From Mobula hypostoma (lineage: Eukaryota), in contig NC_086107.1 in the NCBI RefSeq assembly GCF_963921235.1, positions 97,900,001 through 97,964,000 on the forward strand: a DNA stretch of 64,000 nucleotides. Reading direction: 5' to 3'. Both the position numbers and the translations under genes were made by a program. Positions 2,664-63,262 of the stretch are shown one piece after another. The notes beneath the pieces are model-generated. The model saw only the letters and a list, made by a program, of their open reading frames with translations. It did no database searches and was not told the origin of the DNA. Numbering within the stretch: position 1 is the first letter of the stretch; the number at the start of each line of letters is the position of its first letter.

Positions 2664-4559
2664 CTCTAGAAATTACATTGTGGGCCATGACTTACCAGAA
2701 GTTCCCAACATATAGCAGCACTGACCTGTGAATCATTCTGGCACAGAGGCAGCTTGTTGCTGGTGGAGCCGTTCCTTCAGTCCCACTCCCCACTTTACTC
2801 CTCTGCCCCGCAAATTAATCTTCCTCATTTTTAAAATTCGCCTTCTGGATGTTGCTAAGTTCATCATTAAGGAGCTGCTGACGTGCCTCTTTCCTGAACT
2901 GCTGGAGTCCAAGTGCTTTACTGTAGAGTTGCCAGGTGTGTCCACCAGTGCTGGAAAGTGAGGCTGAGATGTGAGATTAATCATAGCCTTGACAGCTGGC
3001 AGAACAAACTCAAAAGACTGAATAGGCTTCGTATGATAATTCACTTTACCAATACCCCACAGGCAGTGAGACCCAGATCCACACTGACCACACGAGAAAG
3101 TTTTTGTCACATACCCTTTTGTTCAAAATCTTAAAATCTGTGCCCTAACCCTCCACCCCCTCTTGAATCACCTGCTGGTGGGAGCTTCAATCTCCCCCCT
3201 CTGAGCCACTCATGATCTAGAGCAGGGGTTCCCAAACTGGGGTCCGTGGACCCCTCAACTAACGGCAGAGCTCCAAGGCATTAAAAAGTTCTAGACTGTC
3301 TACATCAAGTCACCTCTCAGCCTCAGATGAAATCAGCAGATGCTGGAAACACTCAGCAGAACAGGCAGCATCTGTGGAGAGAGAAACAGTTAATGGTCCA
3401 GTTTGACAACCCATCATCCAAACCCTACTCTCAGCTCTCGTCATTGTTAGGAAAGCAGCCACAATCTCTCCCATCCTTACCCTGAGGCTGACCTTGCCCC
3501 CCCCCCCCACCACCCTTTAACCCTCATCCTTCTAAACTCTCTGGAATACCGACCTAGATTGTCGAGCCACTCCTCATAGTTACAACCCTTATCCCAGGAA
3601 TTAGCTTGGTGAATGTCCTCTAAACCAGCAAAGACCTCTTCCTTATTGAGTTGGAAATTGTTACATAACCAGGAAGGTCTGCTGAATGTATTTCAGAAGA
3701 TCCTCTGTTGCTTTGTCAAATAGTCTAACCTTTGTTCCAGACTGCAGTCTCCAAAGTCACCACTGTAACAGCCCATCAGCTTTGCTTTTCTTCCCCCCTT
3801 CTCTCCCTCTCTATCTGCCCATCCGCTTCTCTCCCTTCTTCCTCTCCCACCCTCTCTCCTCTCCCCCTCTCTCTCCCTCCCTCCTTCTCTCCCACTCTCT
3901 CTTTCTCTCTCACTTTCTCCCTCTCACCGTCTTACCTGTAGAATTCCCTCAGTAACATTTGGTATCTCTTCACTGTGCTACTTCTCTGGAGTAATTGACC
4001 TACCATTAGTGTGAAAAGCTGCTGAGGTTTCTGTGACAAATTTGATTTTGTTTGTTCTTTAAACAACGGTCTTCTTTCAGCACATTGAGAGTTTGCAGTT
4101 TGCCCAGTCATGCACAACTCTTCTCTCTTGGCTGGCATCAGAGTCAAAGGTCTTTAACCCACAGACGGCAGACTCACAATGCCCTCCTTTCTCTTCCTCA
4201 CATTCCTGCCTCTCTCTAGTTTTCAAACGTTCTCTTTCCGACATGCCTGCTCACAACCACACTTTGACTTTTGTCTTCTTTAACTTCCTGCAACCCCATT
4301 CTTGCGCCCTCTGACACACCTTGCCCGTTAGCCTGTGAGTAAACCCCTCCCCTCTCACTCATTTCCTCCCCCCACCCCCCGACACACATCAGCCCCATCC
4401 AACTAGCTCCCTCCACTCTTGAGTTGGTCTGTTTCCCCAGCTGAGTCATTCTTACCCTTTAATCCGTTCCCCCTTTGGTCTGTACGTGTGGTCACCCGCT
4501 CCCCACCCGTTAGGCAGCCGGGCAAGGAGGGGGATGCAGGCATAGCCAGGGAGTGGCAG

Positions 4560-17737: not shown

Positions 17738-18445
17738 GCAACATACACAAAATGCTGGAGGAACTCAGCAAAGAGTACAGCCGACGTTTCGGGCTGAGAC
17801 ACTTCGGCAGAGTTGGAAGGTGGGTGGAGGGGAGGGAGAACCACAAGGTGATAGGTGAAACTGGGGGGAGGGGTGAAATAAAGAGTTGGGAAGCTGATTG
17901 GTGAGAGAGATACAGGTCTGAAGAAGGGGGAATCTAATAGGAGAGGACAGAAGGCCATGGAAGAAAGAAATGGAGGGAGGAGCACCGGGGGAGGCAATGG
18001 GCAGGCAAGGAGATAAGGTGAGAGAGGGAAAGGGGATGGGAAATGGTGAAGGGTGGGGGGGGGGCATTACCAGAAGTTGGAGAAATCGATATTTATGCCA
18101 TCAGGTTGGAGGCTACCCAAATGGAATATAAGGTGTTGCTCCTCCAACCTGAATGTGGCCTCATTGCGACAATAGAGGAGGCCATACACTGACGTGTCAG
18201 AATGGGAATGGGAAGTGAAATTAAAATGGGTGGTCACTGGCAGATCATGCTTTCTCTGGCAGGTGGAGCGTAGATGCTCGATGAAGTGGTCTCCCAATCT
18301 ACGTCGGGTCTCACTGATATACAGGACACCACACCGGGAGCACCGGATACAGTAGATGACCCCCCAACAGACTCGTAGGTGAAGTGTTGCCTCACCTGGA
18401 AGGACCGTCTGAGGCCCTGAATGGTATTGAGGGAGGAGGTGTAGG
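17738..18445 (-). mobile_element. Penelope-like element 3' fragment with GIY-YIG endonuclease, 3'UTR and degenerate hammerhead
   Basis: GVIYCIRCSRCGVLYISETRRRLGDHFIEH...RLEEQHLIFHLGSLQPDGINIDFSNF is a PLE GIY-YIG domain; frameshift in a G-run near 18365. Confidence 0.9.
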
Positions 18446-19619
18446 TGCATTTGTATGACCCCTAACTTGTTGAGGGTGAGGAATTGAGTGATGGTAGTTC
18501 CAATGAATATCAAGTAGTGGAGTTTGGACTCTCCTTATTTGAGATGATCATTACTTGTGAGGTGCAGATGTTACTTTCCATTTGTTGGCCCCATTCTATC
18601 CAGATGCTGGTGCAGGAGGGCGTGTACTGTATCATTGTGTGAGGAGTTGTGAATGTTGTGCAGTCATTATAGTGAACATTTCACCCCTGACATTATGTTG
18701 GCTGGGTGAAGGTTCATCATAAGGTCAGGCATGAGATGTTCACGGTTGCCATGGTAGCGTGATGCCATTAGAGCTCAGGGCGTCAGAGTTCAGAGTTCAA
18801 TTCTGGCACCATCTGTAAGGTGTCTAATGCATGGGTTTCCCCAGGTACTCCAGTTTCCTCCCCCAGTCCAGAGGTGTACCAGGTTGGATAATTGATTAGT
18901 GTAAATTGTCCCGTGCTTAGGTTAGGGTTAAGTCAGGGTTGTTGGGGGGTTGCTGGGGCGTCACAGCTCAAAAGGCCAGAAGAGTTTATTTTCCACATTA
19001 TATCACTAAAATAAAAATTTTAAATCAGGAGGTCCCTTATGATGGGTCCTTGATGAAACAGCCAACATTGATTCAGCCCAGGACCCTTCCCTGAGGAACT
19101 GCTGCAGCAAAATATTGGAGACAAGATGACTGACCTCCAACATCCACAAACAGGTCTTTTTTTACGCAATGCGGGTCCCCTTGCTTGCTGCTGACTTGTT
19201 GTTCCGCGGCTTCTCCACGCCACACTGCTTCAGGTGACATCAGGGGCAGGTGGCCTGGGATCCAGCTATTCCGATCCATATTTAACCAGGTCTGGAGCTG
19301 GGTGCTGCTGGTGAAACCCACAGTAACCAGGTTAATGGTGAGAAGCACATACAGAGTGCTGGAGGAACTCAGCAGGTCAGGCAGCATCTATGGAGGCAAA
19401 TAAATAGTCGACCTTTTGGGCTGACAGTCTTCATCAGGTGAGCTGGTACTGTTTGATGACGTTGTCAGTCAGAATCTTCTTTTTAAGAATTAGAATTAGA
19501 ATTTATTTCTTACATCCATCTCACAACATGAGGGAGTAAAAATCTTTATGTTGTGTCTCTGTCACTATGTACGAGCAATAAGGAAGGGAGATGTGGGAGG
19601 ATATTGCCCAAACACTAAG

Positions 19620-25171: not shown

Positions 25172-26332
25172 GTAAGTCACCCTCTCCACTCCTATTTAAT
25201 TAATTTGTTTGTTTATTATTGAGATACAGTGCAGAGTAATCCCGTCCAGCCGTGTCACCTAGCATCCCCCAACTTCCCCCAATACTTTATCTCCAAACAA
25301 GGGAAAACCTGCAGACGCTGGAAAGGCAAGCAATACACACACAATGCTGGAGGAATCAGCAGGCCAGGCAGCATCTACAGTCGATGTTTTCAGTCCAAGA
25401 CCCTTCAGTGTCCTGCACTCTTTTCTGCAGATGCCACCTGGGCTGCTGAGTTCCTCCAGCATTGTGTGTGTATGCGTGTCACTTTATTATTTCCCATCAG
25501 TTACAGTATGTACAGCCTAGTGTCACTTTATGGACAAATGATCTGTCTATGTTTATAAGCTATCTCATGTATTTATTATGTTTTTGTATTATTACTGTGT
25601 TCTTTATCTTTTGTGGGGTTTTTTGCGTGCATCAGATACGAAGTAACAATTATTTTGTTCTCCTTTACACTTATGTACAGGAAATGATGACATTAAACAG
25701 TCTTGAATCATGAAATCAATAGCATAGAGTCGTAGAGAGTGCTAGTGTGGGAGCAGGCCCTTCAGCCCATCGAGACTGTGCCGTCTACCCATCAACCATT
25801 TTGCTCACTCCAACCCTTACTCACAGTATTCTCCCCACGTTCCCGTCAACTGCCCCAGGTTCCACCACTCACCCCTGGGCTGTGCCCAGCTTACGGTGGC
25901 CAGTTGACCCACCAGCCTGAACGATTTTGGGAAGGGGGAGGAAAGCCAAAGCACCCTGGGAAATCCTCGCGGTCACGGGGAGAACATGGAAGCTGCAGAC
26001 AGACAGCCTCCAAGGTGAGGATCAAATCCAAGTCACCAGAGCTCTGAGGGTTCTTCGTTCTGCCCGTAAAGAGCTTCTGCTGCTGCAGAGTTCAGTTCAT
26101 TTTGCAGGATAAGGAACGCTTTCAGTTTACCACAGAGTTATCCAGTACCTGCGGATAACATGCAGTTGAGACTGTCTCTGATTGGAGCACCCTTGTGGTA
26201 GTTTTCCAGTCAAAGTGTGATTTCCAAGATTGTTATTTGGTGTCCAGGGGTCTCAATCTTGCTAATAATTGATGCGTTCACTGTCAAGTGTGTCTACCTG
26301 AGGGGATGATTACCGACCTTGTCTTTCTGTAG

Positions 26333-36310: not shown

Positions 36311-37329
36311 TATGCACTCCTTCAGTTTGATTAAATCACCCTGAAGCCTCTTCCCATCCTCCTCACAATCTCACAATCCCTCAGAGATTGTTGTTGGCAG
36401 ATTTGGAAGTGGTATTTTTCCTTGTCGAAATATTGCTGGTGCCCAAGCATCGATCCCTGCAGTTCCTGTGTACCACAAAACACCTATTTAATACTACTCC
36501 CGGTTTCCCGTACATCAGACAATTTTCAGTTCCTACCAATATATTACCCTCACTCCGTGCGCTTTAATTTCGCTAACCTCTTCTGTGGGAGTTTATCAGT
36601 GGCCTTCTGAAACCTTAATTGCACCAAAATCCATTTCAGCTCTTGTTCCCGTTCCCCTACACTTTCCCCTCTGTCCTGCAAATTCTTCCCTTTCAGGTAC
36701 TCCATCTAGCCTGTTTTCAAACACTGCAGTTGAAATCTGTCCCCACTTCCCCCTCCAGTGCCATTACAACGACCATTCACCGTGTTAAAGCATGCCCTTG
36801 TTTCGTTTTCCAGTTCTGTCCCCATCCTTTGTGTCCTTGGATCTCATCCCTTCCATAGGTTCTCCCTGTTTACACACTCCACAAGGTCGTCAGATCTCTT
36901 CCCGACCAGCCCGATCCCAGCTTCTCCACACCAGGCACCAGTCCCTCATCCCTGGGAGTACAATAGTAAATCCCTTCTGCACCCTCTCCCAAAACTTCAC
37001 AGCCTGAAAATACAAGTGGACGCATGCTCCATTGTGATTGAGCCTGTCACGCAAATGCTCGCCATCGCACTCGTAATCTTTTCCTCAAAATCCCCGTCAC
37101 TGTCAGTACACTAACTACATACGCATTCTGTATCTCCCCGACCTTGTGGCCTCAGAGATTATCCCGCCTCTTCTCGATCTTCTTAGCGAGACACACCTCC
37201 TCAGTATACCAGCCACCCCATGGGCTGTACCCTCACAGCGGCTGTTGCGGTCCTGACTGCTCACCGCGTCCCTGGACCGTGTCAATACTTAAAAACACCA
37301 GAACATCTGCAAAGCAACACACACAAAAT

Positions 37330-37750
37330 AAGTGGAGGGGCAACACCTTATATTCCACCAACCTGATGAAATAAATATCGATTTCTCGTTCCTGTAAAAA
37401 GAAATTCCCTCCTTCCCCTCTTCTTCTATTCCCCACTCCGGCCTCTCACCTGCCTATCACCTCCCCCTGCGCCCCCTCCTCCTTCTCTTTCTCCTGTGGT
37501 CCACTCTCCTCTCCTGTCAGATTCCTTCCTCTCCAGCCCTTTACTTTCCCCACCCACCTGGTTTCACCTCTCACCTTCTGGCTACCCTCCTTCCCCAAAC
37601 CCCCACACCCCATATTTTCATTCTGGCGTCTTCCCCTTCCTCTCCCGTCCTGAAGAAGGGTCTCGGCCCGAAACGCTGACTGTTTATTCATTTCCATAGA
37701 TCCTGCCTGACCCGCTGAGTTCCTCCAGCATTTTGTGGGTGTTGCTTTGA
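37330..37750 (+). mobile_element. Penelope-like element 3' end with mutated hammerhead (37646-37682)
   Basis: GTC-CTGAAGA-AGGGTCTCGGCCC-GAAAC-GCT-GAC; triplet GCU is not NUH. Confidence 0.78.
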
Positions 37751-39099
37751 ATATCTAGAAGTTGTGCCCTTTAATCAGTGTCCAAGCCATAAATAGCCAC
37801 GGAGGAACGCAGTGATGATTCCAGTAACAATCCCCAGACAGCTTGTCTGTATCTTTTCCCTCCATCTGAAAACCATCCTCTGTGCCTGATCTGTTCAGTT
37901 GTGTTTTTTTTTCTTTCTCTCTCTCTCTCTCTCTCTCTCTCCTCCCCCCCCCCCCCCCACCCCGACCCCGCCTTAACCTCTTTAATCCGCAGGATTCGGT
38001 CTGTTATCTGGCACCGTATCAAACTTTCTTTGGAAGTCCATGTAAACCACATCACAGACCCTCAGTGATTCCCGTGGTAACTTCAAAAACCCGTTGTCAG
38101 ACAGAATTTGCCTCGAACAAACCCACGCCTGCTCTCTCTAGTCAATCCATGCTTATTGGCTTCTGTTTCTGATCCTTGTTTCTAGAACTCTCTCTCCCTC
38201 TGGTTAAAGTGACCGGTCTGCCATTACCGGGTGTCAGGTCTACATCCTTTGACTAAGACGGGGAGTTTTCTCCCGAGCCTGGAGGTGATGTGATGAAGTA
38301 TAATCAGGTTACAGTATAAGGGACATATAGAACTGTGAGAAGTCTCAGGCACGTGTGTATAACCAGAATGCACAGTACTATATTTGTCAACTCGGAGCGG
38401 AGAGCGAGTTTGCGGGAGCTAAGCAGGTGCTACACCTTGCCCAAAGGTGACCTGCAGGTGAGTGGACGGAAGGAGCGCCCTACACCTCCTTTGGTAGAGA
38501 CGTATCTCCATCTCCCCAGATGGGGATCTGAGGGGGGAAGATTTTACAGAGAGGGGTTGATTTCTGGGATACACAGCCAGAGGTGGTGGTGGAATCAAAT
38601 AAAATTATTCTGCTTAAGAGGCATTTAGACCGACACAAATAGGCAAGGGACAGACCTAATGTGGGCAAAAAGGGACAGCATGGATGGGTTGAAGGGCTGT
38701 ACTATTCTGAATGATGTAGTTTACCCATGTCCATCCACGGCCTCCTCTACTGTAAAGATGAAGCCACACTCAGGTTGGAGGAACAACACCTTATATTCCG
38801 TCTGGGTAGCCTCCAACCTGATGGCATGAACATTGACTTCTCTAACTTCCGCTAAGGCCCCACCTCCCCCTCGTACCCCATCTGTTACTTATTTTTATGC
38901 ACACATTCTTTCTCTCACTCTCCTTTTTCTCCCTCTGTCCCTCTGAATATACCTCTTGCCCATCCTCTGGGTCCTCCCCCCCCTTGTCTTTTTTCCCGGA
39001 CCTCCTGTCCCAAGATCCTCTCGTATCCCTTTTGCCAATCACCTGTCCAGCTCTCGGCTCTATCCCTCCCCCTCCTGTCTTCTCCTATCATTTTGGATC

Positions 39100-39192
39100 T
39101 CCCCCTCCCCCTCCCCCTCCCCCTCCCCCTCCCCCTCCCCCTCCCCCTCCCCCTCCCCCTCCCCCTCCCCCTCCCCCTCCCCCTCCCCCTCC
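39100..39192. repeat. (CCCCCT)n hexamer microsatellite, ~15 units
   Basis: Directly visible perfect array. Confidence 0.97.
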
Positions 39193-39227
39193 AACTTTCA
39201 AATCCCGTATTCACTCTTCCTTCAGTT

Positions 39228-39263
39228 AGTCCTGACGAAGGGTCTCGGCCTGAAACGTCGACT
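39228..39263 (+). ncRNA. Intact minimal type I hammerhead ribozyme motif
   Basis: AGTC-CTGACGA-AGG(GTCTCGG)CCT-GAAAC-GTC-GACT: all core nucleotides, GUC cleavage triplet, palindromic ACGT in place of stem III. Confidence 0.82.
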
Positions 39264-40099
39264 GTACCTCTTCCTAGAGATGCTGCCTGGCCTGCTGCGT
39301 TCACCAGCAACTTTGATGTGTGTTGCTTGAATTTTCAGCATCTGCAGAATTCCTGTTGCTTTAGTTTACCCAACCTTGAGATCCACCGTGTAGGGCTGGA
39401 TCGTTGCTAGGGTCTTTGTGCTTTTGGCCTCCATGTATCAGCTGCAGATGGTGGGCAGTCCCACATGATGCTGGAAGAACTCAGCAGGTCAGGCAGCATC
39501 TGTGGAAAGGAATAAACAATCGACGTTCCAGGTCGGGACGTTTCCCTCCGTCGATGCGACCTTTGTGGTTCCAAGTTTCCAACATCCGCAGCTTTTTTTG
39601 TATCCTTCCTCTGCTCCCTGCGCACGGAATCCCTACACCCCTCCGCTCTCCCACAGGTGAACCTACTGGAGGAATAAGTACCTTGGGAAGGTACCGATGA
39701 GCGCATCCCAAATCCCAGACTAGTCATTCTACACCAACAGCCGCTGACTTCACTCGTGTACCCGCGGAGGGTGAATGTTCACGTCTGACGTGCTCCAGGA
39801 GGTGACTGCCTGCGGCCAGAGACAGGGGTTAGAGACAAGAATCCGGGAGGCCTGGGTGCATCGTGCTCCCAAACTGAGCTCGGGAGGGGCAGTCGGGGAA
39901 CGAGTGACAGAGGGAGGCAGGGAGGCATCCGGGAAGACCACAGAACCAGCTCGGCTGCAGGCGGCAGAAGGAGACCGAGTCCGACAGCGACGCTTAAGAG
40001 GCGTCAGCAGCAAGAGGAATGGACAGACACAAACGTCCATTGTCACGGAACAGCTGCGGGACATTTTAAAGCAGGAGGAGGTCAAGGTCCACACTGGCA

Positions 40100-43000
40100 A
40101 AAAGAGAATAAGATCTCTCAGGGCTAAAATGGCGAGTACGATAGGGAATAACTTTAAGGTGATTGGAGGAAAGTATAGGAGGGATTTTTTTTCACAGTGG
40201 CGAGTGTGTGGAACTTGCTGTCATGTGTGGTGGTGAAGGCAGAGACTTAGATACATGGATGAAGGAAAAATGGAGGGTTATGTCGGAGGGAAGGATTAGA
40301 TTGATTTTAAAGTAGGTTTAAAGGTCAGCCGAAGGGCCTGCGCCGTGCTGTAATTTTTTTTCTCTCTGTTCTACGTTCTGTAACACGAATTTAGGGAGCT
40401 TGCTCACAGGTTAAAGAGAAGAACGTCCAAGGTTGCAATCTGTAGATTGCTTCTGTTCCCTGGAATAGGGTCAGGGGAGTGTGTGGCCGAAGGGACGGCG
40501 TGGGCTGGAGAGGTTTGGAATTCTGGATCACCGGGACTGCTTCTGGGGAAGGGGGCTTCTGCACAGGAGGATGGGCTGCATCTGAACTGGGACGGGCCCA
40601 ACGTGCTTGCAGGGGGCTTTGCAGCTGGGAGAGTTTTTAAACGAATCTGTCAGGGGAATGGGAACCAAGTGAGAGGGATATGCAGAGTCACGTAGAGAAG
40701 GAAATCCGTGTGCCCCGAGTCACGCTAACCGCAATGCTATGGTGGCGGGGTTGAAAGTTCAATCTACAGAAAAGGATAATGGTAAACCGGACTTGGTTGT
40801 CACGTCTCGAATTGGGAGAAGGCCGATTTCAATATGTACGGCAGAACCCGGCCAGCGTAGACTGGGAGTAGCTACCTGCAGGAGGGTCTCTATCGAACCA
40901 ACAGGAATCATTCAGAAGTGAAATAACGAGGGTTCAGTGCCAACATGTCCCCGTAAGGGTAAAAGGGGCAAACAGTAAGTTCAAGTAATCGTAAGGGGGG
41001 GGGCGGGGGTAGCGCAACGGTCTACAGACCCAGCGACCCGGGTTCAATTTCCGCCAATCTCCTGTAAAGTGTTTGCAGGTTTCCTAACAAATCCAGTTAA
41101 TCAGTTAAATTGGGGAGTTGCTAGGCGGCGCGGCTCGAAGGTCTCAATCCAGATCTAGATAAAGAAGCAAGAACTGAAAACACTCCCAATGCGGGAGGAG
41201 CTCAGCAGATCAGGAGGGGAGTAAACAGTCGGCATTTCCGGGCGAGCCCGTTTTTATCGGAACGGGAAAAGAAGTGGGTAAAAGCCAGATTTTAAACATC
41301 CTGGAGGATGAAAATAAACAAAGAAAGTATTTAGCAACATACTGACGTCAAGAGGTATAACTGGCGAAAGATTATAGTCATTGGGGCAACCCTTGCAGAG
41401 ACAGAGAACATATGTGAGGTGTTAAACAGACACTCGTCCTCTGTCACATCAAGAGAAAATCTGTAGATACTGGAAATCCGAGCAACGCACACAAAATGCT
41501 GGAGGAACGCAGCAGGCCAGGTAGCTTCTATAGGGAAAAAAAATGTACAGTAGTAGTTTTGGGTCGAGACCCTTCCCCGGTCCTGCTGAAGGGTCTCAGC
41601 CCGTAACGTCGACTGTACTTTTTTCCATAGATGCTGCCTGGCCTGCTGAGTTCCTCCAGCATTTTGTGTGTGCTGTTTGTCCTCCGTACTCACTGAGGAC
41701 TTGGAGAATTTAATGGGAGGGGGAGTGGTGAAATTCCACAATTTGCTACCGTTAAAAACAAGGAGGTATTGGTTGCCTTCAAGGGCTTAAGAGTTGGAGA
41801 AATTGGAGAAATCCCCAGGAGCTGACCTGATCAGATGTGCCCCAGGCTCCTTTGGAAAGCAAAGGAGGAGATGGCTGGCTCTGTGGCAGATAGTTTTTAG
41901 AATCTTTGATGATCACAGACAAGGTGCCAAATGACCAGATTGTGTTGCCTTTATCCAGGATGGGCAGTGAGGAAAAGGCAGATAATTACAATCTCTTGAG
42001 GCTAATGTCAGTGGTAGAGAAATTATTGGGGAAAAAATCTGAAGGACAGATTTAACCTGCACTTGGAAAGGCAGCATTTTATCAAAGATAACCAGATGAA
42101 TCTGTGGCTGAGGTACTGGTGCAGGGGCAGGGGTTCAGGTTCTTTGCCCATTGGGATTTCTTCAGGGGTAGAGGTGACCTGTATGGGAGGGACGGTGTGT
42201 ACTCAAACCAGACAGGAACCGATACCCTGGCAAGGAAATTCGTTAATACTGTTTGACAGTGTTCAAAGTAGGTTGACGTGCATCTGGGACACTGAGCAGG
42301 AGAGAGGACCTCCACTCGTCAGGGTCGACCATGGATATGGTCTCCCGGCCGTCGACAGGGCAGTATGGAAAACAATGCAGCAGGCTCCCCCTCTCCACAC
42401 AGCTGATGAAGCAAAAGGAACAGTGGAGACCGATACAGTTTGACACCGGCGGCCATGCAGGAGTTGCCAGTCAGCATTGAACTCAACGTAGGACTGTCTG
42501 AGGGACTCCAGCTGCAGATTTTTCCCTCGGGGTTTACTCCCGAAGCCTTCCCCATGAGTGGGTTTGGCCGCAAGGAAGCGGGGGTTTGAGATCAGAGTTT
42601 TCCCTGTCCTAGATGAGCTGTCAACCACAGCTGATGTGCCCCGTCTGCCTGGAGTGACTGGTTTTAAAGCCTTTGCACCTTCTCCCATCAGTAGAAACAG
42701 TTTTGCCGGGCTTAGTGGCTAAGCCACACGTGAAGGCCAGGAGCTGGAATTGGTTGTTAAAGGCTATTTGAGGCGCACACCATTGGGAGCATTTAATAGG
42801 TAGTGGGAGCTTGTCCCCATTACCAACTCTGACCTTAACAACCATAAGGAACCTGAGGAGAAGTAAGACGAGGGTCAAAGCAGCAGCCAGCGAGAGAGCA
42901 AGTTTCATAATCAGGATAGCCAGGGACAAGGTGAGCACTGGGAAAGGAATATACATTAAACTCCATTTATTTCAGTGCATGAGTTTTAACAGGTACAGCC

Positions 43001-46967: not shown

Positions 46968-49820
46968 GTGAGAAGGGTGGGATGGTCAGCAACAAGTGGT
47001 GATGAACAATGGGACACCCCACATTTCTCCTGGAGAGTAGACCAGGCTGCCCACTGTTTAACCACTTCCATCCTTGGAACAGACTCCAAGGAATCTGGGG
47101 TGGAGATTGCAGGCAACCATCCCCTCTCTCATCCACATTCTCTGCCAGTCATCCTTTCTTCCCTTAACTCCTGTCTCTCCAACAAACCTTTGATCAGCTG
47201 CTCCAATATCTGAAACGTTGACTCAGTTTCTCTCCCCATAGGTGCTGCCCGGACGGCTGAGTGTTTCCAGCATTTTCTGTTTACGTAAGGTTTTGGGGGT
47301 AATAGCGGCTAATTCTGACTTGTATGACGTAGCCTCAGCTCTAATAATGAACGTTCCGAAAGTCGAAGAGAAACATACAATCTTGAAGCGATGAAACTTA
47401 AGTGTACCCAAGTGTAAGTTAAGCGTAATGGAGCAGTCAGCAAAAGATATGACATCCATCGGTCCCCAGCTGCAAACTATCACGAATGAAGGCGTAACTT
47501 ATTCCCTTCGCTTTTACCACGCCCCCACTCGTGTGACTAGTTACCATTAGAACCATGATAAACGCATAACACGAAATACAATGCAGATAGACAACAGTTG
47601 TGTGATCCCGACAGGGGTGTCCACAGGACAACGGGAGCATCGTTAAAGTCCTCCGAGAGGAGGAAGATTTGCGGGTTGTGTACTTGTCCCTTTCTACCCC
47701 AGTGAGCTGTGTTGAGATTGAGGGTGAGGCCCAGAGGATGACCCGATTCCTCGCTGGTGTCGCAGGAGATTGGGACAGTGGGCGCAGCTTTCAGGGGTCT
47801 TTGCGCTCGAGCGATCTGTGTCCCTCTGTCCCTGTCTCTCTCTCTCTGCGGTGAGAGAGTCTGTTGGCTCCGAATCGCGGGAACTTGCAGACTGTAACAT
47901 CGAAACAGCGAACTGTTGGTCTCCTCTCTCACTGTGTCAGGAGTGATATCTCTCTCTCTCTCTCGTTAGTGAGAGGGGTTTGAGATGTCGAAGTGTTGGG
48001 ATGGACAGTAGTTTCTGATGGATTCTAGATCATGGTCTCTGGGGTCTAGTTATGGCATGGTGGGTGGTGGGGGTTGATGTTTTTGTGCTGCTGCTTCTGT
48101 GTGGGAGGGGGGCTTTGGGATTCTAATGTTTTTCTGTCATTCATTTTTTTTCCCCTTTCTGTTTCGTGGATGTCTGTGAAGGGTAAGAATTTCAGGTTGT
48201 ATACTGTATACATTTGCTGATTTTAAATTGAACCTTTGAAAGTGAAATGACCATTTGGACTGGAAATGCTCAGTAAGTTGGGTGGCGTCCATGGAGAGAG
48301 AAACAGTTAACATTTCAGATCGATGACCCTTTGTCAGTGTTGGGCTACAAGGGAATGGGGAATGGATGTTGGCCACAATTCTATTGACCAACCAAGCAGG
48401 CTCCAAGTGGTCATCTGCTCTGATCTAATGCCGGACGCTGGGCAGTGGAGCGTGAGGGAGCAGAGATCGCGTGGTCTGTTGTTCTACTAAAGGACACTGT
48501 TGGTCCCCAGGCCCAGCATGAGGTTCACTGTGAATGTTGTGGATTTGGGCAAAATCTGTGGATGACCCAGGGTTTAGGAAGGCGGTGAGCACCCAGGAGA
48601 AGAGATGGGCTGCAGGACTGGGAAGATAGATGAATGAAAGGGGGAGTGGACGATATGGAGAAATTCGCAGCAATTAGGAGGGGAGGGAATATATCACAGT
48701 CCAGACAGGTTTATAGAAAGTGCAGACTTCTTTAATTATGTTTTTGGAATTAGGAGTTTTAAATAAAAATTGAGCTGTTCTTGGACTGTTTTAATGGTGA
48801 AATGAGGGAAGGGGAAATTATACTAAATCCTTCTCAACCCAGAGGAGAGAATTCTGTCCCGGACACCATGTCATGGGTCCGGAATTGCGCATGCAGATCT
48901 TCTGAATGTCCCTGTGGATGAGGGGATTACAGGGAAGAGCAGAGGTACGTTCCCTAAAGCAAAATTTAATAGAAATATTCACAATTTTAGAGTAGCCAAG
49001 ACAAACCGTTCTGTGGGCGCAGTTTCTCTGTAAGCATGTGGGCATCTGTCGTTGAGGTCATAAGAAATTTCTCTTTGCCTTCCCATATTCCGGCCCTTTC
49101 CCACAAAGACATGTCTGAAAGCTTCCAATCATGGCTCAGAAATGGCCTGTATCAGCGCTGGGGATGAGGATCGCGTGGTAAATGTACCTGTGGATACATC
49201 TGAGCCACAGTACTCCCCATCCATTCCCATCTCCAGCAGAGTTACCGCAGGGGCTCAGTGGTCAGCTGCAGCCGCTCAGTTCCATCATCCCTGGTTCTGC
49301 CAGTCTGACAACCAGTCACCAGCTCCTGCTGTCAACTCCTCAACCTACTTTTTCAGCATCCAGAACAGGATGACCGTAAATTTAGTATTTGGCCGACCTG
49401 ACTCATTAAAAAAATTACCGATGGTTACTCCACCAGCCAGTGGAACAGTTTTGTACCCCACTTACCTCAGAATAAAGCAGCCCAAAGATCTGTCGCTCAA
49501 GGGCAGGTACGATTCTACGTGCAACACTCACAAAATGCTGGAGGAAGTCGGCAAGTCAGGCAGCGTCTACGGAGGGAAATAAGCAGCCAATGCTTTGGGC
49601 TGGGACACTTCATCAGGACGCCTTTCAGGGTCTCAACCTGAAATGTTGACTATTTGTTCTTCTCCATAGATGCTGCCTGACTCTGGCATTTTGTGTGTGT
49701 GTGTGTTGCTCGAGATTTCCAGCATCTGCAGAATTTCTTGTCTATCTCTTATCTGATGTTTTCTGGTCGGATGTGATTTATTGTCACATTTAGCTAGTTT
49801 CCAACTTGTTTGTTTTCTAG

Positions 49821-49979: not shown

Positions 49980-50664
49980 GTGAGAATGGCTCTTCCTTTT
50001 CAGGATGTGCGCACTGTCTACAGTTCTGACCTTCAACGACTGCTCCTCTACGGTGGGGCCGAGCCACAGCCCTTCTGGTGAAGCTGCTCCCGCTGTGCGG
50101 CGTGGAGGGGTGGGACCACAGGATTTATACCCAGTGACGATAAAGGACCAGGTCAGGGTGGTGTCGGACCGAGAAGGGAACCCTTGCCCCCTTAACCCTC
50201 CTCGGTGGTGGAGATCCTGGGTTTGGCTGGGTGGCGGCAGTGGTGTAAAACTACTGCCTTGTGTTTACCATAGCCCAGTAAGTGAATTTTTCATGAATGA
50301 TAAAAAAAATATTTAATTTGTGCTAAAATAGCTTTATTTTACAGTTTGTTGTCTTCTGCCCAAGTTAGTGTGGTCTTTCACTGATTCTGTTATGGTTATT
50401 ATTCTATAATTTATTGAGTATGCCCACAAGAAAATGAATCTCAGGGTTGTATATGGTGACATATATGTACCTTGATAATAAATGTATTTAAACTTTGAGT
50501 TTGCAGTCATAACCGAACATGTAATTTTCACTTAATATATAAACCTTAAAGTAGATGATTTCAGATTTTTCTACAGTATATTTTAATTGCTTGTTTACTT
50601 AACCTGTCTATATTCCCTTCACAGCCATAGGTCTCGTAGGTTAATATCACCAAAAAATATAATA

Positions 50665-51190
50665 CATTTGTCCACGGCCTCCTCTGCTGCCACAGTGAGG
50701 CCACGCTCAGGTTGGAGGATCATCACCTTCCATCTGGGTAGCTTCCAACCTGATGGCATGAACATTGACTTCTCTAACTTCTGGTTATTGCCCCCCTCCC
50801 TCTCCTCCACCATTCCCCATTCTTGTTTCCCTGTCACACCTTCTCTTCTTAACTGTCCCATCACCTCGTCCCCCTTCCCTTTCTTCCATGGTCTTCTGTC
50901 CTCTCCTGTCAGATTTCCCCTTCATCTCTTCCACCATCTTGCCAGCTGTTTACTTCACCCCATCCCCCCCTCCCAGTTTCACCTTATCACCTACTACCTT
51001 GTACTTCTTCCTCCCCTCCCCTCTTCTTATTCCGACTTCTTCCCCTTCCCTTTCCAGGTGAAGGGTCTTGGCCTGAAACATCAAGTACTTACTCCTCTCC
51101 ATAGATGCTGCCTGACCTGCCGGGCCCCTCCAGCATTTTGTGCACATTGCTGTAGATTTCCAGCATCTGCAATACCCCTTTGTCTTTATG
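50665..51190 (+). mobile_element. Penelope-like element 3' end (hammerhead core damaged)
   Basis: FHLGSFQPDGMNIDFSNFW, pyrimidine-rich UTR, GAAGGGTCTTGGCCTGAAAC, standard tail. Confidence 0.82.
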
Positions 51191-52864: not shown

Positions 52865-53320
52865 ACTCTAACTTGACTTCTCTAACTTCCACTAGTGCCC
52901 CACCTCCCCCTTGTACCCCATCCGTTATTTATTTATATACACGCATTCTTTCTCTCTCTCCTTTTTCTCCCTCTGTCCTTCTTGACTATACCCCTTGCCC
53001 ATCCTCTGGGTTCTCCCCCCCCTTTTCTTTCTCCCTGGGCCTCCTGTCCCATGATCCTCTCATATCCCTTTTGCCTATCACCTGTCCAGCTCTTGGTTCC
53101 ATTCCTCCCCCTCCTGTCTTCTCCTATCATTTTGGATCTCCCTCTCCCCCTCCCCCTTTCAAATCTCTTACTAGCTCTTCCTTCAGTTAGTCCTGATGAA
53201 GGATCTCGGCCCGAAACGTTGACTGTACCTCTTCCTAGAGATGCTGCCTGGCCTGCTGCGTTCACCAGCAACTTTGATGTGTGTTGCTTGAATTTCCAGC
53301 ATCTGCAGAATTCCTCGTGT
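52865..53320 (+). mobile_element. Penelope-like element 3' end in KDELR3 intron 3
   Basis: Closely similar to 38835-39355 but without the expanded CCCCCT array. Confidence 0.88.
53189..53224 (+). ncRNA. Minimal hammerhead motif, core intact, weakened stem II
   Basis: AGTC-CTGATGA-AGGATCTCGGCCC-GAAAC-GTT-GACT; GUU triplet; AACGTT palindrome. Confidence 0.68.
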
Positions 53321-61770: not shown

Positions 61771-63262
61771 CTAAAGAGGGAAAAGCAAGTTCAATATAGT
61801 ACTTAGAATGAAATTGTACAACACAACATACCATACAAATCTTAACATCTTTTGCCGCTTTAAACAAAGCTGATCATGCACAAATTCTCCAAGCTTACTA
61901 CGAAGCTCCAAATAACTCTCTGCAACCCCACTGCTTCAGCTCATTCTGTCAGGCACACAAAAATCTATCTGGTAGAGCACAACTGATTGGCTTCCCAGCC
62001 ATAGTACATCAAAATTTGCAAAAGCTCAGCCCATCCAGTGCCAGCAGACAGATGACTTCTAAAATATGAAAGCTCAGGTCTGCTTTTGCACAGAACTGAC
62101 AGCATCACCTATCTGACCATTCCATAATACTGCACATCTGCCCTTTTACCTTAAGGAGAAATGCAAGATTGCTTAGATAATTATGTAATAAAAATTGGGA
62201 AAACAAGCTTTAAACCACGTAGCTTTAAACACAAAACTAATAAAGCCAATTTATTACAATAAACCCAAGTAAAAATGCTGGAAACAGTATGTGCGAAATG
62301 TGAGACAGTTAAAGGATGTGGGGTAGGAAACATTGAAAGGATGCACATTCCCAAGAACTACAGCACAGAAATAGGCACTACACCCCACTATACCTGTGTC
62401 GACCATGATACAAATCTCATTCCACCTGCCTGCACATTGCTCATTCATTTATTGTGTCTAAAATGCTTCAATGCCACAATCATATCTGATTCCCCCCACC
62501 TCCCCTGCCAGAGCATTCTAAACAGTTACCACTGTGTTATAAAAAAGCAACTGCTTTGTACAACTCATTTACACTTTTCCTTTCAGCTTAAATCCATATC
62601 CTCTAGTACTTTAGATTTTCACACTGGGGAAAGACTCCATCTACCACATCTATACCATCAATTTTAACTAGATACCTCACACTGGAAGTTAGCTTTGCTT
62701 CTCTCTCCACAGATACTGCCTTGAGCTGCCCAATATTTCCAGCATTTTATGTTTCTCTTTCAAATCCTTCATGTTGTGTGCAGACTCTGACTATAAGGGC
62801 AAGCTTGGTTTCAGTTTAAAGCTCCTTTCATTTTCAATTATAGGAAGATGCAAGTGGCAAACAAGGATTGCATTTATTTGAGGTAATCTGGTTATTTGGA
62901 ATGTGGAGCTCAGGGAGCTAAAGCGATGGAAATAAATAATTCTATGATAGGTAGCATGTGGGGGTTAGAACTGCACTTGATTACCAAGTTATAAGGAAAG
63001 CGGCATGGGGTAAATAATATTAAAGAACCTAATGGCTGTGGCAGAAACAGCACAAGAACTTCGGAAAGAGGCAGCTATTCTATTGGGATGGGCTTTACCT
63101 GAATTTAGTTGGGACCAGTTCCCAGCAAATTGAATTAGACCCGTCGATAGGCTTTTAACTAAATAGTTGGGGGTACGTGGTTTGCATGCAGGATATTTAG
63201 AAAACTGAAGGAAAAATTTTCAACATAATTGTATAAGGGCTAAGAGCGTTATAAAAGCGAGC

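What the first reader, a model, noticed from the sequence alone, without database searches (positions are those of the whole stretch)
39228..39263. Intact minimal hammerhead ribozyme carried by a Penelope-like element; ~20 related copies in 64 kb
Seen: AGUC-CUGACGA-AGG(GUCUCGG)CCU-GAAAC-GUC-GACU has every hammerhead core base, a 4-bp stem I, a 3-bp stem II, a GUC cleavage triplet and a palindromic ACGU replacing stem III. It lies ~370 nt after the stop of a GIY-YIG ORF remnant. Related motifs recur at about 1725, 2476, 17780, 19406, 24366, 25378, 27891, 33765, 37646, 41580, 43711, 44285, 48305, 49590, 49628, 51055, 53189 and 53640. Established: PLE terminal repeats carry minimal type I hammerheads that cleave efficiently as dimers through a palindromic stem III. 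Inference: at roughly one motif per 3 kb, this genome may hold a very large, unannotated hammerhead population.
Basis: partly seen in the sequence, partly recalled or inferred. Interest (0 to 1): 0.8.

Follow-up and report, generated by a model that had tools for sequence, protein, structure and literature searches.

The report
Minimal hammerhead in dead Penelope-like copy
The motif is a sequence-intact minimal hammerhead ribozyme of the kind already known from Penelope-like jumping genes, sitting in a short dead tail-end copy of such an element in a ray or shark genome that holds about a hundred thousand of them.

Summary
Window 39227-39264 (+) carries every hammerhead core base, a GUC cleavage triplet, a 5-bp helix I and an ACGU palindrome in place of helix III. 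It fits the published consensus for minimal hammerheads of Penelope-like elements (PLEs). It lies in a 644-bp, 5'-truncated PLE insertion (38718-39361) flanked by an 11-bp target duplication, 373 nt after the stop of a 45-codon GIY-YIG remnant. Only this copy passes a full descriptor; the others are decayed relics.

Genome-wide, the core pattern occurs 100,750 times against 103 in a reversed control. Rfam models find none in the window.

There is no helix I/II covariation. One older lineage carries a non-canonical core (A6C). The papers I could read report low, dimer- or protein-assisted cleavage, not efficient cleavage. No RNA data were available.

Verdict: a new member of a known kind. It is notable for its host lineage (not among the 40 species of the founding paper) and its copy number. 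The scan noted similar fold-back PLE copies before in another shark-type genome.

The parts
38707..38717 (+). Left copy of the 11-bp target-site duplication (tagtttaccca)
   Evidence: Read directly. The same 11 bases recur at 39362-39372, immediately after the element's tail.
38718..39361 (+). 5'-truncated insertion of a Neptune-like, endonuclease-bearing Penelope-like element (young subfamily 'A')
   Evidence: blastn to the longer copy L024 aligns window 38726-39114 at 96.4% and 39177-39353 at 94.4%. The ends are set by the target duplication and by comparing 3' ends in 40 rows.
38718..38855 (+). Last 45 codons plus stop of the GIY-YIG endonuclease ORF (MSIHGLLYCKDEATLRLEEQHLIFRLGSLQPDGMNIDFSNFR*)
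   Evidence: ORF list. tblastn finds the same tail in other copies. The longer copy L024:3028-4011(-) ends with the same residues and hits Pfam GIY-YIG at E 2.4e-4, 21.8 bits, just under the 22.6 cut-off. On its own the 46-aa piece hits no Pfam family.
39101..39192 (+). Expanded (CCCCCT)n microsatellite inside the element's 3' UTR
   Evidence: Read. Copy L022 has only about two units at the same place. This accounts for the gap in the blastn alignment and for the 373-nt rather than about 300-nt spacing.
39227..39264 (+). Minimal type I hammerhead motif. Helix I 39227-31 / 39260-64. CUGACGA 39232-38. Bulged A 39239. Helix II 39240-43 / 39248-51 with loop CUCG 39244-47. GAAA 39252-55. C15.2-G16.2 39256-57. 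U16.1 39258. C17 39259. Predicted cleavage between 39259 and 39260.
   Evidence: It fits the printed consensus 'NNN CUGANGAH G..C GAAAN Palind NU H NNN' of Cervera & De la Pena 2014, supplementary figure S3.
39265..39326 (+). 3'-terminal region shared by all subfamilies (AGATGCTGCC...CAGCA...GTGTGTTGC). It ends at the 'short' 3' terminus.
   Evidence: Alignments. 23 of the 40 subfamily-A rows lack the extension, and most of them break off at or within a few bases of this point.
39327..39361 (+). 35-nt 3' 'tail' extension, present in only some copies
   Evidence: 17 of 40 rows carry it. It matches the 30-40-bp tail described for PLE insertion units (Craig et al. 2021, passages) and the two adjacent reverse-transcription start sites of the Anolis PLE (Frangieh et al. 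2024, abstract passage).
39362..39372 (+). Right copy of the target-site duplication
53182..53314 (+). Second subfamily-A copy. The core is kept with a GUU triplet, and helix II has G to A.
   Evidence: blastn to L024 aligns 52875-53314 at 89.5%.
18067..18534 (-). Longest GIY-YIG ORF remnant in the window (155 aa, stop to stop). Its hammerhead relic follows at 17810-17768 (-).
   Evidence: No Pfam hit on its own. It is 72-80% identical to 149 other scored places in the genome.
41505..41653 (.). Fold-back pair: two tail-end copies joined head to head inside their hammerhead regions (41587-41505 on - and 41580-41653 on +). Similar pairs lie at 49545-49681 and 25354-25453.
37649..37722 (+). Older subfamily-B relic with an endonuclease-tail remnant upstream (37308-37388). 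The cleavage triplet is lost (GCU).

Best explanation
Window 39227-39264 is a sequence-intact member of the minimal, helix-III-less type I hammerheads that Penelope-like elements (PLEs) carry in their terminal repeats.

Shown:
- It sits about 300-370 nt behind the stop of the RT/GIY-YIG ORF and 67 nt (short end) or 102 nt (tailed end) before the element's 3' end.
- The element resembles the Neptune clade: it has a C-terminal GIY-YIG and a CX4CX2C linker.
- The local copy is a dead-on-arrival, 644-bp 5'-truncated insertion with an 11-bp target duplication. Its motif is intact because the copy is young (94-96% identical to another copy), not because this locus works.

Inferred:
- In transcripts of source elements, two motifs pair through the ACGU palindrome into a shared 4-bp helix III (a double hammerhead). 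Probably helped by the element's own protein, they cut after C17.
- This would trim read-through or tandem transcripts.
- Cleavage is likely slow and not strictly needed for copying.
For: Motif:
- Every core base, the bulged base after A9, the palindromic 15.2/16.2, GUC and a 5-bp helix I are present.
- All agree with the published consensus. The motif is nearly the same in build as the Acropora Neptune example printed there and fits the features listed in the main text.

Not chance:
- 1 match against 0 in 100 shuffles in the window.
- 4 against 0 in 264 kb with the full descriptor.
- 100,750 against 103 genome-wide.

Carried by a PLE:
- 11 of 11 loci anchored on the endonuclease (L010-L020) have the module about 300 nt downstream.
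- Longer copies give RVT_1 (E 2.1e-5) and GIY-YIG (E 2.4e-4), both just under Pfam's cut-offs.
- Full-length relatives of 920-960 aa score above cut-off for GIY-YIG in both proteins scanned and for RVT_1 in one of the two.
- A CKRNKCYTC linker precedes the endonuclease.
- The PLE insertion signatures are all seen: an inverted 5'-truncated partner, a 35-nt tail at one end only, and target duplications (against Craig 2021 passages).

Dead copy.

Variation:
- Contigs of four public runs carry the element at very high depth.
- Inside the motif they vary (at 10% or more) only at N7, the last loop II base, 11.1 and H17, all positions a hammerhead tolerates.
Against: - No helix I/II covariation among 48 copies: 71.3% of cells paired against 69.8% in shuffles, and 48 of 500 shuffles reach the observed value.
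- All copies descend from one motif lineage, so structure is not independently supported in this genome.
- The four tolerated variant positions are also CpG sites, so mutation bias explains them as well as selection does.
- An older PLE lineage (subfamily C) has C at core position 6. That variant is found 4,105 times, three times as often as the transition A6G (1,294). At least one lineage therefore multiplied with a core expected to be inactive.
- The 38-mer alone prefers an extended hairpin that pairs GACG of the core with CGUC at the cleavage site: -11.0 against -7.0 kcal/mol for the hammerhead fold.
- Helix III of the dimer would be only 4 bp.
- Closely spaced intact neighbours are mostly in opposite orientation. 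By my reading of the first 100 places, about ten inverted pairs lie within 1 kb against one tandem pair, which does not favour dimers in cis.
- In this copy 11.1 is U, giving G-U instead of the usual G-C.
Confidence: 0.8

Rival explanations
1. A hammerhead in form only. The conserved 38-mer acts as an extended hairpin or protein-binding site in the PLE's 3' region (for example for recognition by its reverse transcriptase), or merely hitch-hikes. Self-cleavage plays no part in this family's life cycle.
For: - The minimum-energy fold is a rod that buries the core.
- There is no covariation for the hammerhead helices.
- The A6C lineage spread to thousands of copies.
- Hammerhead mutants did not affect insertion by the Anolis PLE in vitro, and no RNA-seq reads ended at its cut site.
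- Craig et al. note that PLE clades without hammerheads proliferate well and that hammerheads may 'simply parasitize PLEs'.
Against: - A hairpin does not explain why all the invariant core bases, the bulged base, GUC and the palindrome are kept in the consensus of the two largest lineages (A and B).
- It also does not explain why the same build recurs in PLEs from cnidarians to reptiles.
- The Anolis motif does cleave with the expected C3/G8 genetics when its protein is present.
Confidence: 0.15
2. It is a non-LTR retrozyme: a non-autonomous tandem repeat with type I hammerheads that is expressed as small circular RNA.
For: - Retrozymes co-occur with PLEs and are related to PLE terminal repeats. 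One chondrichthyan in a 2026 preprint has them.
- A few same-orientation module pairs 350-720 nt apart exist in other loci: L001, L004, L015, L021.
Against: - This copy is a single insertion with endonuclease coding sequence at its 5' end and a target duplication.
- The copies in the window are dispersed or inverted, not tandem arrays.
- The motif lacks helix III and the loop contacts of canonical retrozyme hammerheads, and no Rfam hammerhead model matches.
Confidence: 0.03
3. A chance resemblance within an ordinary repeat (a SINE or LINE tail).
For: The downstream part of the module (AGATGCTGCC...) is more widely shared than the hammerhead part. It also occurs in diverged relatives without a core (window 39544-, 3418-, 48337-).
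Against: - The counts against controls.
- The fixed place behind a GIY-YIG ORF in 11 of 11 anchored loci.
- The feature-by-feature fit to a published consensus that was defined without this genome.
Confidence: 0.02

Closest known systems
Minimal hammerheads (min-HHR) of metazoan Penelope-like elements (Cervera & De la Pena 2014, PMC4209133; main text parts 1-2 and supplementary file 2 parts 1-2 read)
   Same: - The CUGANGA box followed by one unpaired non-G base.
- Helix II starting with G.
- GAAA.
- A palindromic 15.2/16.2 with no helix III.
- NUH (here GUC).
- A short helix I (3-6 bp).
- Its place in the PLE terminal region.
- Most copies are single motifs in truncated elements, and some lie close together on opposite strands.
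   Different: - The host lineage is not among the 40 species of supplementary figure S3 or in table S1, and the words shark, Callorhinchus and skate are absent from the text searched (supplementary file 1 was not searchable).
- Helix II is only 4 bp, at the short end of the published range.
- 11.1 is U in the dominant subfamily.
- About 100,000 intact cores, against the roughly 4,000 (coelacanth) and 9,000 (Xenopus) called remarkable there.
- One motif lineage without the 'consensus families full of covariations'.
Neptune-type PLE hammerhead of Acropora digitifera (supplementary figure S3 and table S1 of the same paper)
   Same: Almost the same build: a 3-bp helix I, CUGACGA plus A, a 4-bp helix II starting GGG with a 4-nt loop, then GAAA-C-G-U-C. 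The element here also has the Zn-finger-like CX2-5CxxC linker that marks the Neptune and Nematis clades.
   Different: Different phylum. I made no RT phylogeny, so the clade assignment rests on the linker alone.
Hammerhead of the Anolis Poseidon element PAc (Frangieh et al. 2024, PMC11167929; passages read)
   Same: A PLE-borne hammerhead lacking helix III. There are two adjacent 3' end or initiation forms that give a 'tail'. Cleavage there needs the element's protein and is dispensable for target-primed reverse transcription in vitro. This is the basis of my inferred mechanism.
   Different: In PAc the ORF starts inside the motif (at helix II). Here the motif lies about 300 nt after the stop codon, and I did not see a full-length copy with an upstream repeat.
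Non-LTR retrozymes with canonical type I hammerheads (Cervera & De la Pena 2020, PMC7229834, passages; Li et al. 2026 preprint, abstract and results part 1)
   Same: Type I topology, dimer-prone, co-resident with PLEs. Very high copy numbers are possible (up to 120,000 retrozyme copies in axolotl; 28.21 Gbp in the preprint's sample).
   Different: Retrozymes are short tandem repeats with helix III and loop-loop contacts, and they give circular RNAs. Here the motifs are dispersed PLE tails. The density is about 29 per Mb.
Rfam hammerhead families
   Same: The same catalytic core.
   Different: No Rfam family reaches its gathering score anywhere in the window. No hammerhead family appears even at E up to 10 in a 301-nt scan around the motif.

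Membership tests
PLE minimal hammerhead (min-HHR) | Catalytic boxes CUGANGA and GAAA | tested here: met
   39232-39238 CUGACGA and 39252-39255 GAAA.
PLE minimal hammerhead (min-HHR) | One unpaired nucleotide (H) between positions 9 and 10.1 | tested here: met
A39239. The feature is named.
PLE minimal hammerhead (min-HHR) | Conserved G10.1-C11.1 pair closing helix II | tested here: inconclusive
   This copy and the commonest genomic variant have G-U (U39251). C at this place is the majority in the 48-copy alignment and makes up 26-43% of depth in three runs. Published families with G...U exist.
PLE minimal hammerhead (min-HHR) | No helix III; positions 15.2-16.2 palindromic, so that two motifs can share a helix III | tested here: met
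   A-C-G-U at 39255-39258. The descriptor requires it.
PLE minimal hammerhead (min-HHR) | NUH cleavage triplet followed by a short helix I (3-6 bp) | tested here: met
   GUC at 39257-39259. Helix I is 5 bp including U-G.
PLE minimal hammerhead (min-HHR) | Lies in the terminal repeat or 3' region of an element encoding RT plus GIY-YIG | tested here: met
PLE minimal hammerhead (min-HHR) | Several consensus families per genome with compensatory changes in the helices | tested here: not met
   One motif lineage. The covariation score is 0.211 against 0.193 in shuffles, and 71 of 500 shuffles reach the observed value.
PLE minimal hammerhead (min-HHR) | Site-specific self-cleavage (as a dimer or with protein) | not testable with these tools
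   No RNA holder was listed, and contigs cannot show RNA ends.
Endonuclease-bearing Penelope-like element, Neptune-like | Single ORF with RT followed by a C-terminal GIY-YIG endonuclease | tested here: met
   L022 and L024 copies: RVT_1 E 2.1e-5 and GIY-YIG E 2.4e-4, both slightly below the curated cut-offs. Relatives P0004 and P0013 both score above cut-off for GIY-YIG; RVT_1 is above cut-off in P0004 only. The copies seen have frameshifts.
Endonuclease-bearing Penelope-like element, Neptune-like | CX2-5CxxC Zn-finger-like linker between RT and endonuclease (Neptune and Nematis clades) | tested here: met
   CKRNKCYTC in L022:1323-1946(-). The criterion comes from Craig et al. 2021 passages. 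No phylogeny was made.
Endonuclease-bearing Penelope-like element, Neptune-like | Insertion units with pseudo-LTR or partial tandem, an adjacent inverted 5'-truncated copy, and a 30-40-bp tail at one end | tested here: met
   Inverted pairs. A 35-nt tail in 17 of 40 rows. In L010 and L013 the tailed and untailed ends of an inverted pair are flanked by matching target duplications. I did not see a full-length copy with an upstream pseudo-LTR.
Non-LTR retrozyme | Short tandem repeats (150-450 bp), each with a canonical type I hammerhead that has helix III | tested here: not met
   Dispersed or inverted copies, no helix III, no Rfam match.

The most novel reading that the evidence does not exclude
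This ray or shark genome may hold the densest hammerhead population yet seen in a vertebrate. It has about 100,000 sequence-intact minimal motifs (29 per Mb) and, by extrapolation from a 200-kb sample, some 600,000 relics. All are invisible to Rfam-based annotation. With that many identical palindromic partners in nuclear RNA, motifs embedded in introns and UTRs could pair in trans and cut host transcripts, so the family would act as a genome-wide layer of RNA processing. In parallel, the A6C lineage would show in nature that PLE spread does not need hammerhead catalysis.
Probability: 0.1. Interest if true: 0.6.

Novelty: new member of a known kind. Interest (0 to 1): 0.3.

Why it matters
It extends the PLE-hammerhead association to a cartilaginous-fish lineage that the founding survey did not list. 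It also shows how large such a population can be in a 3.5-Gb genome. Covariance-model annotation (Rfam) misses all of it in this window, so ribozyme counts for such genomes are underestimates. The family offers two natural tests of what PLE hammerheads are for. One is a young, abundant lineage with a perfect core. The other is an older lineage of the same element type with a core change (A6C) expected to abolish cleavage. For this locus itself nothing functional is implied.

Tried and rejected
- Rfam: no family at gathering score in the whole window. No hammerhead family at E up to 10 around the motif; the only two hits were weak lncRNA matches.
- A fuzzy regex scan timed out and was replaced by blastn and nhmmer.
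- Pfam on the window's own ORF remnants gave nothing significant; longer copies from elsewhere in the genome were needed.
- In-frame TGA in most endonuclease matches: I considered selenocysteine or read-through. I rejected it because the first 22 residues of my query are out of frame relative to the true protein.
- RNA evidence: no RNA holder was listed. The four runs laid are contigs of unknown kind and show no RNA ends. They say nothing on expression.
- Dimer energy: the double hammerhead is a kissing-type fold that ViennaRNA cannot score. Cofold gave only an extended duplex.
- Other minimal-hammerhead families: the descriptor found none in 264 kb besides this one.
The blastn identities stand in for it.
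- Lunse et al. 2017 (PMC5785218) is not held. Supplementary file 1 of PMC4209133 could not be searched.
- Literature searches for hammerhead + shark + Penelope and hammerhead/Penelope-like/dimers/Callorhinchus found no paper describing these motifs in cartilaginous fishes.

Full report
**The observation**

- The pattern CTGANGA-N13-GAAACGTC occurs once in the 64-kb window and in none of 100 dinucleotide-preserving shuffles.
- I wrote a stricter descriptor. It needs the CUGANGA box, an optional bulge, a helix II of at least 3 bp, GAAA, a palindromic 15.2/16.2, U, H and a helix I of at least 3 bp.
- This descriptor finds 4 sites in 264 kb (the window plus twenty random 10-kb pieces of the same genome) and none in the reversed sequences. 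One of the four is this site.
- Helix I is 5 bp if U39227-G39264 is counted.
- No Rfam family reaches its gathering score anywhere in the window. A permissive scan of 301 nt around the motif returns only two weak lncRNA matches and no hammerhead family.

**The copies in the window**

An nhmmer search started from the motif and its 3' flank finds 23 copies, and 27 after one iteration.
- The repeated unit is about 75-110 nt long: the hammerhead-like part plus a conserved 3' part.
The 18th (27891) holds a diverged CTGATGA...GAAAC relative by eye.
- The alignment shows that nearly all are decayed, mostly by CpG-to-TpG or CpA changes.
- With a relaxed core pattern, 4 window copies pass (2480+, 24399-, 39231+, 53192+). 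With the full descriptor only 39231+ passes.
- Three pairs are fold-backs: two tail-end copies joined head to head within or next to the hammerhead region (41505-41653, 49545-49681, 25354-25453).

**What carries the motif**

The ORF tail that ends 373 nt upstream (…RLEEQHLIFRLGSLQPDGMNIDFSNFR*) recurs before other copies in the window, at 18073-18192(-), 37308-37388(+) and 50650-50781(+).
- The longest remnant, 18067-18534(-), contains a GIY…YIG-like stretch but matches no Pfam family on its own.
- Searching the window's own 3.48-Gb assembly with it gave 150 scored matches at 67-80% identity, out of 225,456 first-look candidates. That figure is not a copy number.
- In 11 of 11 loci anchored on this protein (L010-L020), the hammerhead module follows about 300 nt after the ORF end on the same strand.
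- Longer copies (L022, L024) have, upstream of the endonuclease, ORF pieces that hit RVT_1 (E 2.1e-5, 24.7 bits, cut-off 29.6) and GIY-YIG (E 2.4e-4, 21.8 bits, cut-off 22.6).
- Their relatives in the protein collection are 920-960-aa proteins. Of the two I scanned, both score above Pfam's cut-off for GIY-YIG; RVT_1 is above cut-off in P0004 only.
- A CKRNKCYTC motif precedes the endonuclease. Craig et al. 2021 (passages) give a CX2-5CxxC linker as the mark of the Neptune and Nematis clades.
- The closest named relatives of the RT-thumb/endonuclease part are unnamed or mis-named predicted proteins of rays and sharks: Hypanus sabinus, Mobula hypostoma, Rhincodon typus, Stegostoma tigrinum, Heptranchias perlo and Leucoraja erinacea. 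This agrees with earlier notes of this scan that the genome is a cartilaginous fish's.

**The local copy**

blastn against the L024 copy aligns window 38726-39114 (96.4%) and 39177-39353 (94.4%). The gap is an expanded (CCCCCT)n tract at about 39101-39192.
- The 11 bases tagtttaccca stand at 38707-38717 and again at 39362-39372.
- The insertion is therefore 38718-39361: 644 bp, with the last 45 codons of the endonuclease, the 3' UTR with the hammerhead, and the 3' end.
- Comparing 40 subfamily-A 3' ends shows two forms. 17 rows run on for about 35 more bases (…TTGAATTTCCAGCATCTGCAGAATTCC…). The other 23 lack this extension, and most of them stop at or within a few bases of …GTGTGTTGC.
- In L010 and L013, the tailed and untailed ends belong to an inverted pair flanked by matching target duplications.
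- This is the PLE insertion unit drawn by Craig et al.: an inverted 5'-truncated copy and a 30-40-bp tail at one end. It also fits the two adjacent initiation sites found for the Anolis element.
- The window's copy has the tail. The predicted cleavage site (after C39259) is 67 nt from the short end and 102 nt from the tailed end.

**Scale**

- The core pattern CTGANGA-N13-GAAACGTH occurs 50,186 + 50,564 times in the assembly, against 57 + 46 for the pattern read backwards.
- That is 29 per Mb, or one per 34.5 kb.
- The exact 28-mer of the window is the commonest variant among the first 100 places listed.
- A majority 34-mer of the older subfamily, with up to 2 mismatches, occurs 41,227 times against 0.
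- In twenty random 10-kb pieces (200 kb), nhmmer finds 36 module copies, one per 5.6 kb. The window has 26 at the same threshold, about 2.3-fold more. Extrapolated, the genome would hold some 600,000 relics.
- For comparison, Cervera & De la Pena called about 4,000 (coelacanth) and 9,000 (Xenopus) remarkable. The axolotl genome holds up to 120,000 retrozyme copies.

**Comparison with the known class**

The main text of Cervera & De la Pena 2014 defines the PLE minimal hammerhead. Its features are:
- a short helix I;
- an unpaired base between 9 and 10.1;
- a conserved G10.1-C11.1;
- a palindromic 15.2-16.2;
- no helix III.

- The motif here fits every term except that 11.1 is U in this copy and its subfamily. 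Several printed examples also have G…U.
- The Acropora Neptune example (GCU CUGACGAA GGGC UAAC GCUC GAAA C G U C AGC) is nearly the same in build.
- No cartilaginous fish is among the 40 species or in table S1. The words shark, Callorhinchus, skate and Leucoraja do not occur in the text I could search (supplementary file 1 could not be searched).
- PLEs themselves are reported in all vertebrate lineages, elephant shark included (Chalopin et al. 2015, passages).
- A 2026 preprint finds tandem retrozymes in its one chondrichthyan.

**What argues against a working ribozyme**

1. On 48 copies from the unbiased sample, the nine pairs of helices I and II are paired in 71.3% of cells against 69.8% in shuffles (48 of 500 shuffles as high). 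The covariation score is 0.211 against 0.193 (71 of 500). I do not accept it as one, because these are neutrally decaying copies of one motif lineage. It does mean the structure has no independent support from this genome.
2. An older lineage (subfamily C, 68-69% identical to subfamily A through the endonuclease) has C at core position 6 in 5 of 7 sampled copies. Genome-wide, the A6C pattern occurs 4,105 times. That is three times the transition A6G (1,294), so it is a lineage trait and not random decay.
3. The isolated 38-mer prefers a rod in which GACG of the core pairs with CGUC at the cleavage site (-11.0 against -7.0 kcal/mol).
4. By my reading of the first 100 genomic places listed, about ten closely spaced pairs (within 1 kb) are in opposite orientation and one is in tandem. 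Few motifs therefore have a same-strand partner nearby.
5. The variant positions seen at 10% or more in contigs of four public runs are N7, the last base of loop II, 11.1 and H17. All are tolerated by hammerheads, but all are also CpG sites.

**Mechanism**

Shown:
- the motif, its fit to the class, and its fixed place in the 3' region of an RT/GIY-YIG element;
- the dead, truncated nature of this copy;
- the copy numbers.

Inferred from the literature:
- In source-element transcripts, two motifs pair through ACGU into a shared 4-bp helix III and cut after C17.
- By my own nearest-neighbour estimate, not from any call, such a helix is worth only about -1 kcal/mol.
- This fits the low in vitro activity reported and the need for protein in the Anolis element.
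- In that system cleavage was not needed for target-primed reverse transcription.
- Because initiation sites lie 3' of the motif here, cutting at the 3' motif would remove them.
- A role in trimming upstream read-through or tandem transcripts is therefore more plausible than a role in making the template's 3' end.

I put 0.9 on the identity of the motif and its carrier. I put about 0.5 on self-cleavage having a real role in this family.

**Verdict**

- The copy number is exceptional and standard annotation is blind to it.
- The locus itself is an ordinary dead transposon fragment.
- The scan noted similar fold-back PLE copies with hammerheads in another shark-type genome.

Noticed in passing
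window 41505-41653, 49545-49681, 25354-25453; many -/+ pairs in the list: Head-to-head fold-back pairs of tail-end PLE copies, joined within or just upstream of the hammerhead region. RNA read through such a pair would fold into a long hairpin that buries the motif. Genome-wide they look much commoner than tandem pairs.
   Followed up: partly
window 41582+, 33796-; loci L005, L029, L035, L044; genome counts: An older PLE lineage whose hammerhead box reads CUGCYGA (A6C). It is found 4,105 times with the rest of the core intact, against 1,294 for A6G.
   Followed up: partly
window 39327-39361; 40 rows: Two alternative 3' ends of the same subfamily, differing by a roughly 35-nt tail (17 of 40 rows have it). 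In inverted pairs the tail is at one end only.
   Followed up: partly
window 39101-39192: The (CCCCCT)n tract inside the element's 3' UTR has expanded to about 15 units. Copy L022 has about two.
   Followed up: no
window 39477-39544 (-): A related module, about 115 bp beyond the insertion's 3' end, in which the hammerhead part is replaced by a diverged sequence without the CUGANGA or GAAA boxes, while the 3' part is kept. Relatives with the 3' part but a diverged 5' part also occur at 3351-3418(-), 48269-48337(-), 47209-47262(+) and 62682-62721(+).
   Followed up: no
window 39282-39314 and the same region in all subfamilies: The conserved 3' part can pair AGAUGCUG with CAGCAUUU (older subfamilies), giving a hairpin just before the 3' end. 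This is a candidate recognition site for the element's reverse transcriptase. It was seen by eye only and neither folded nor tested.
   Followed up: no
L022 2995-3600 (-): A subfamily-A copy inserted directly behind the decayed 3' end of an older copy, with a possible ATCCAATATT target duplication. This fits the reported tendency of PLEs to land in or beside earlier copies.
   Followed up: no
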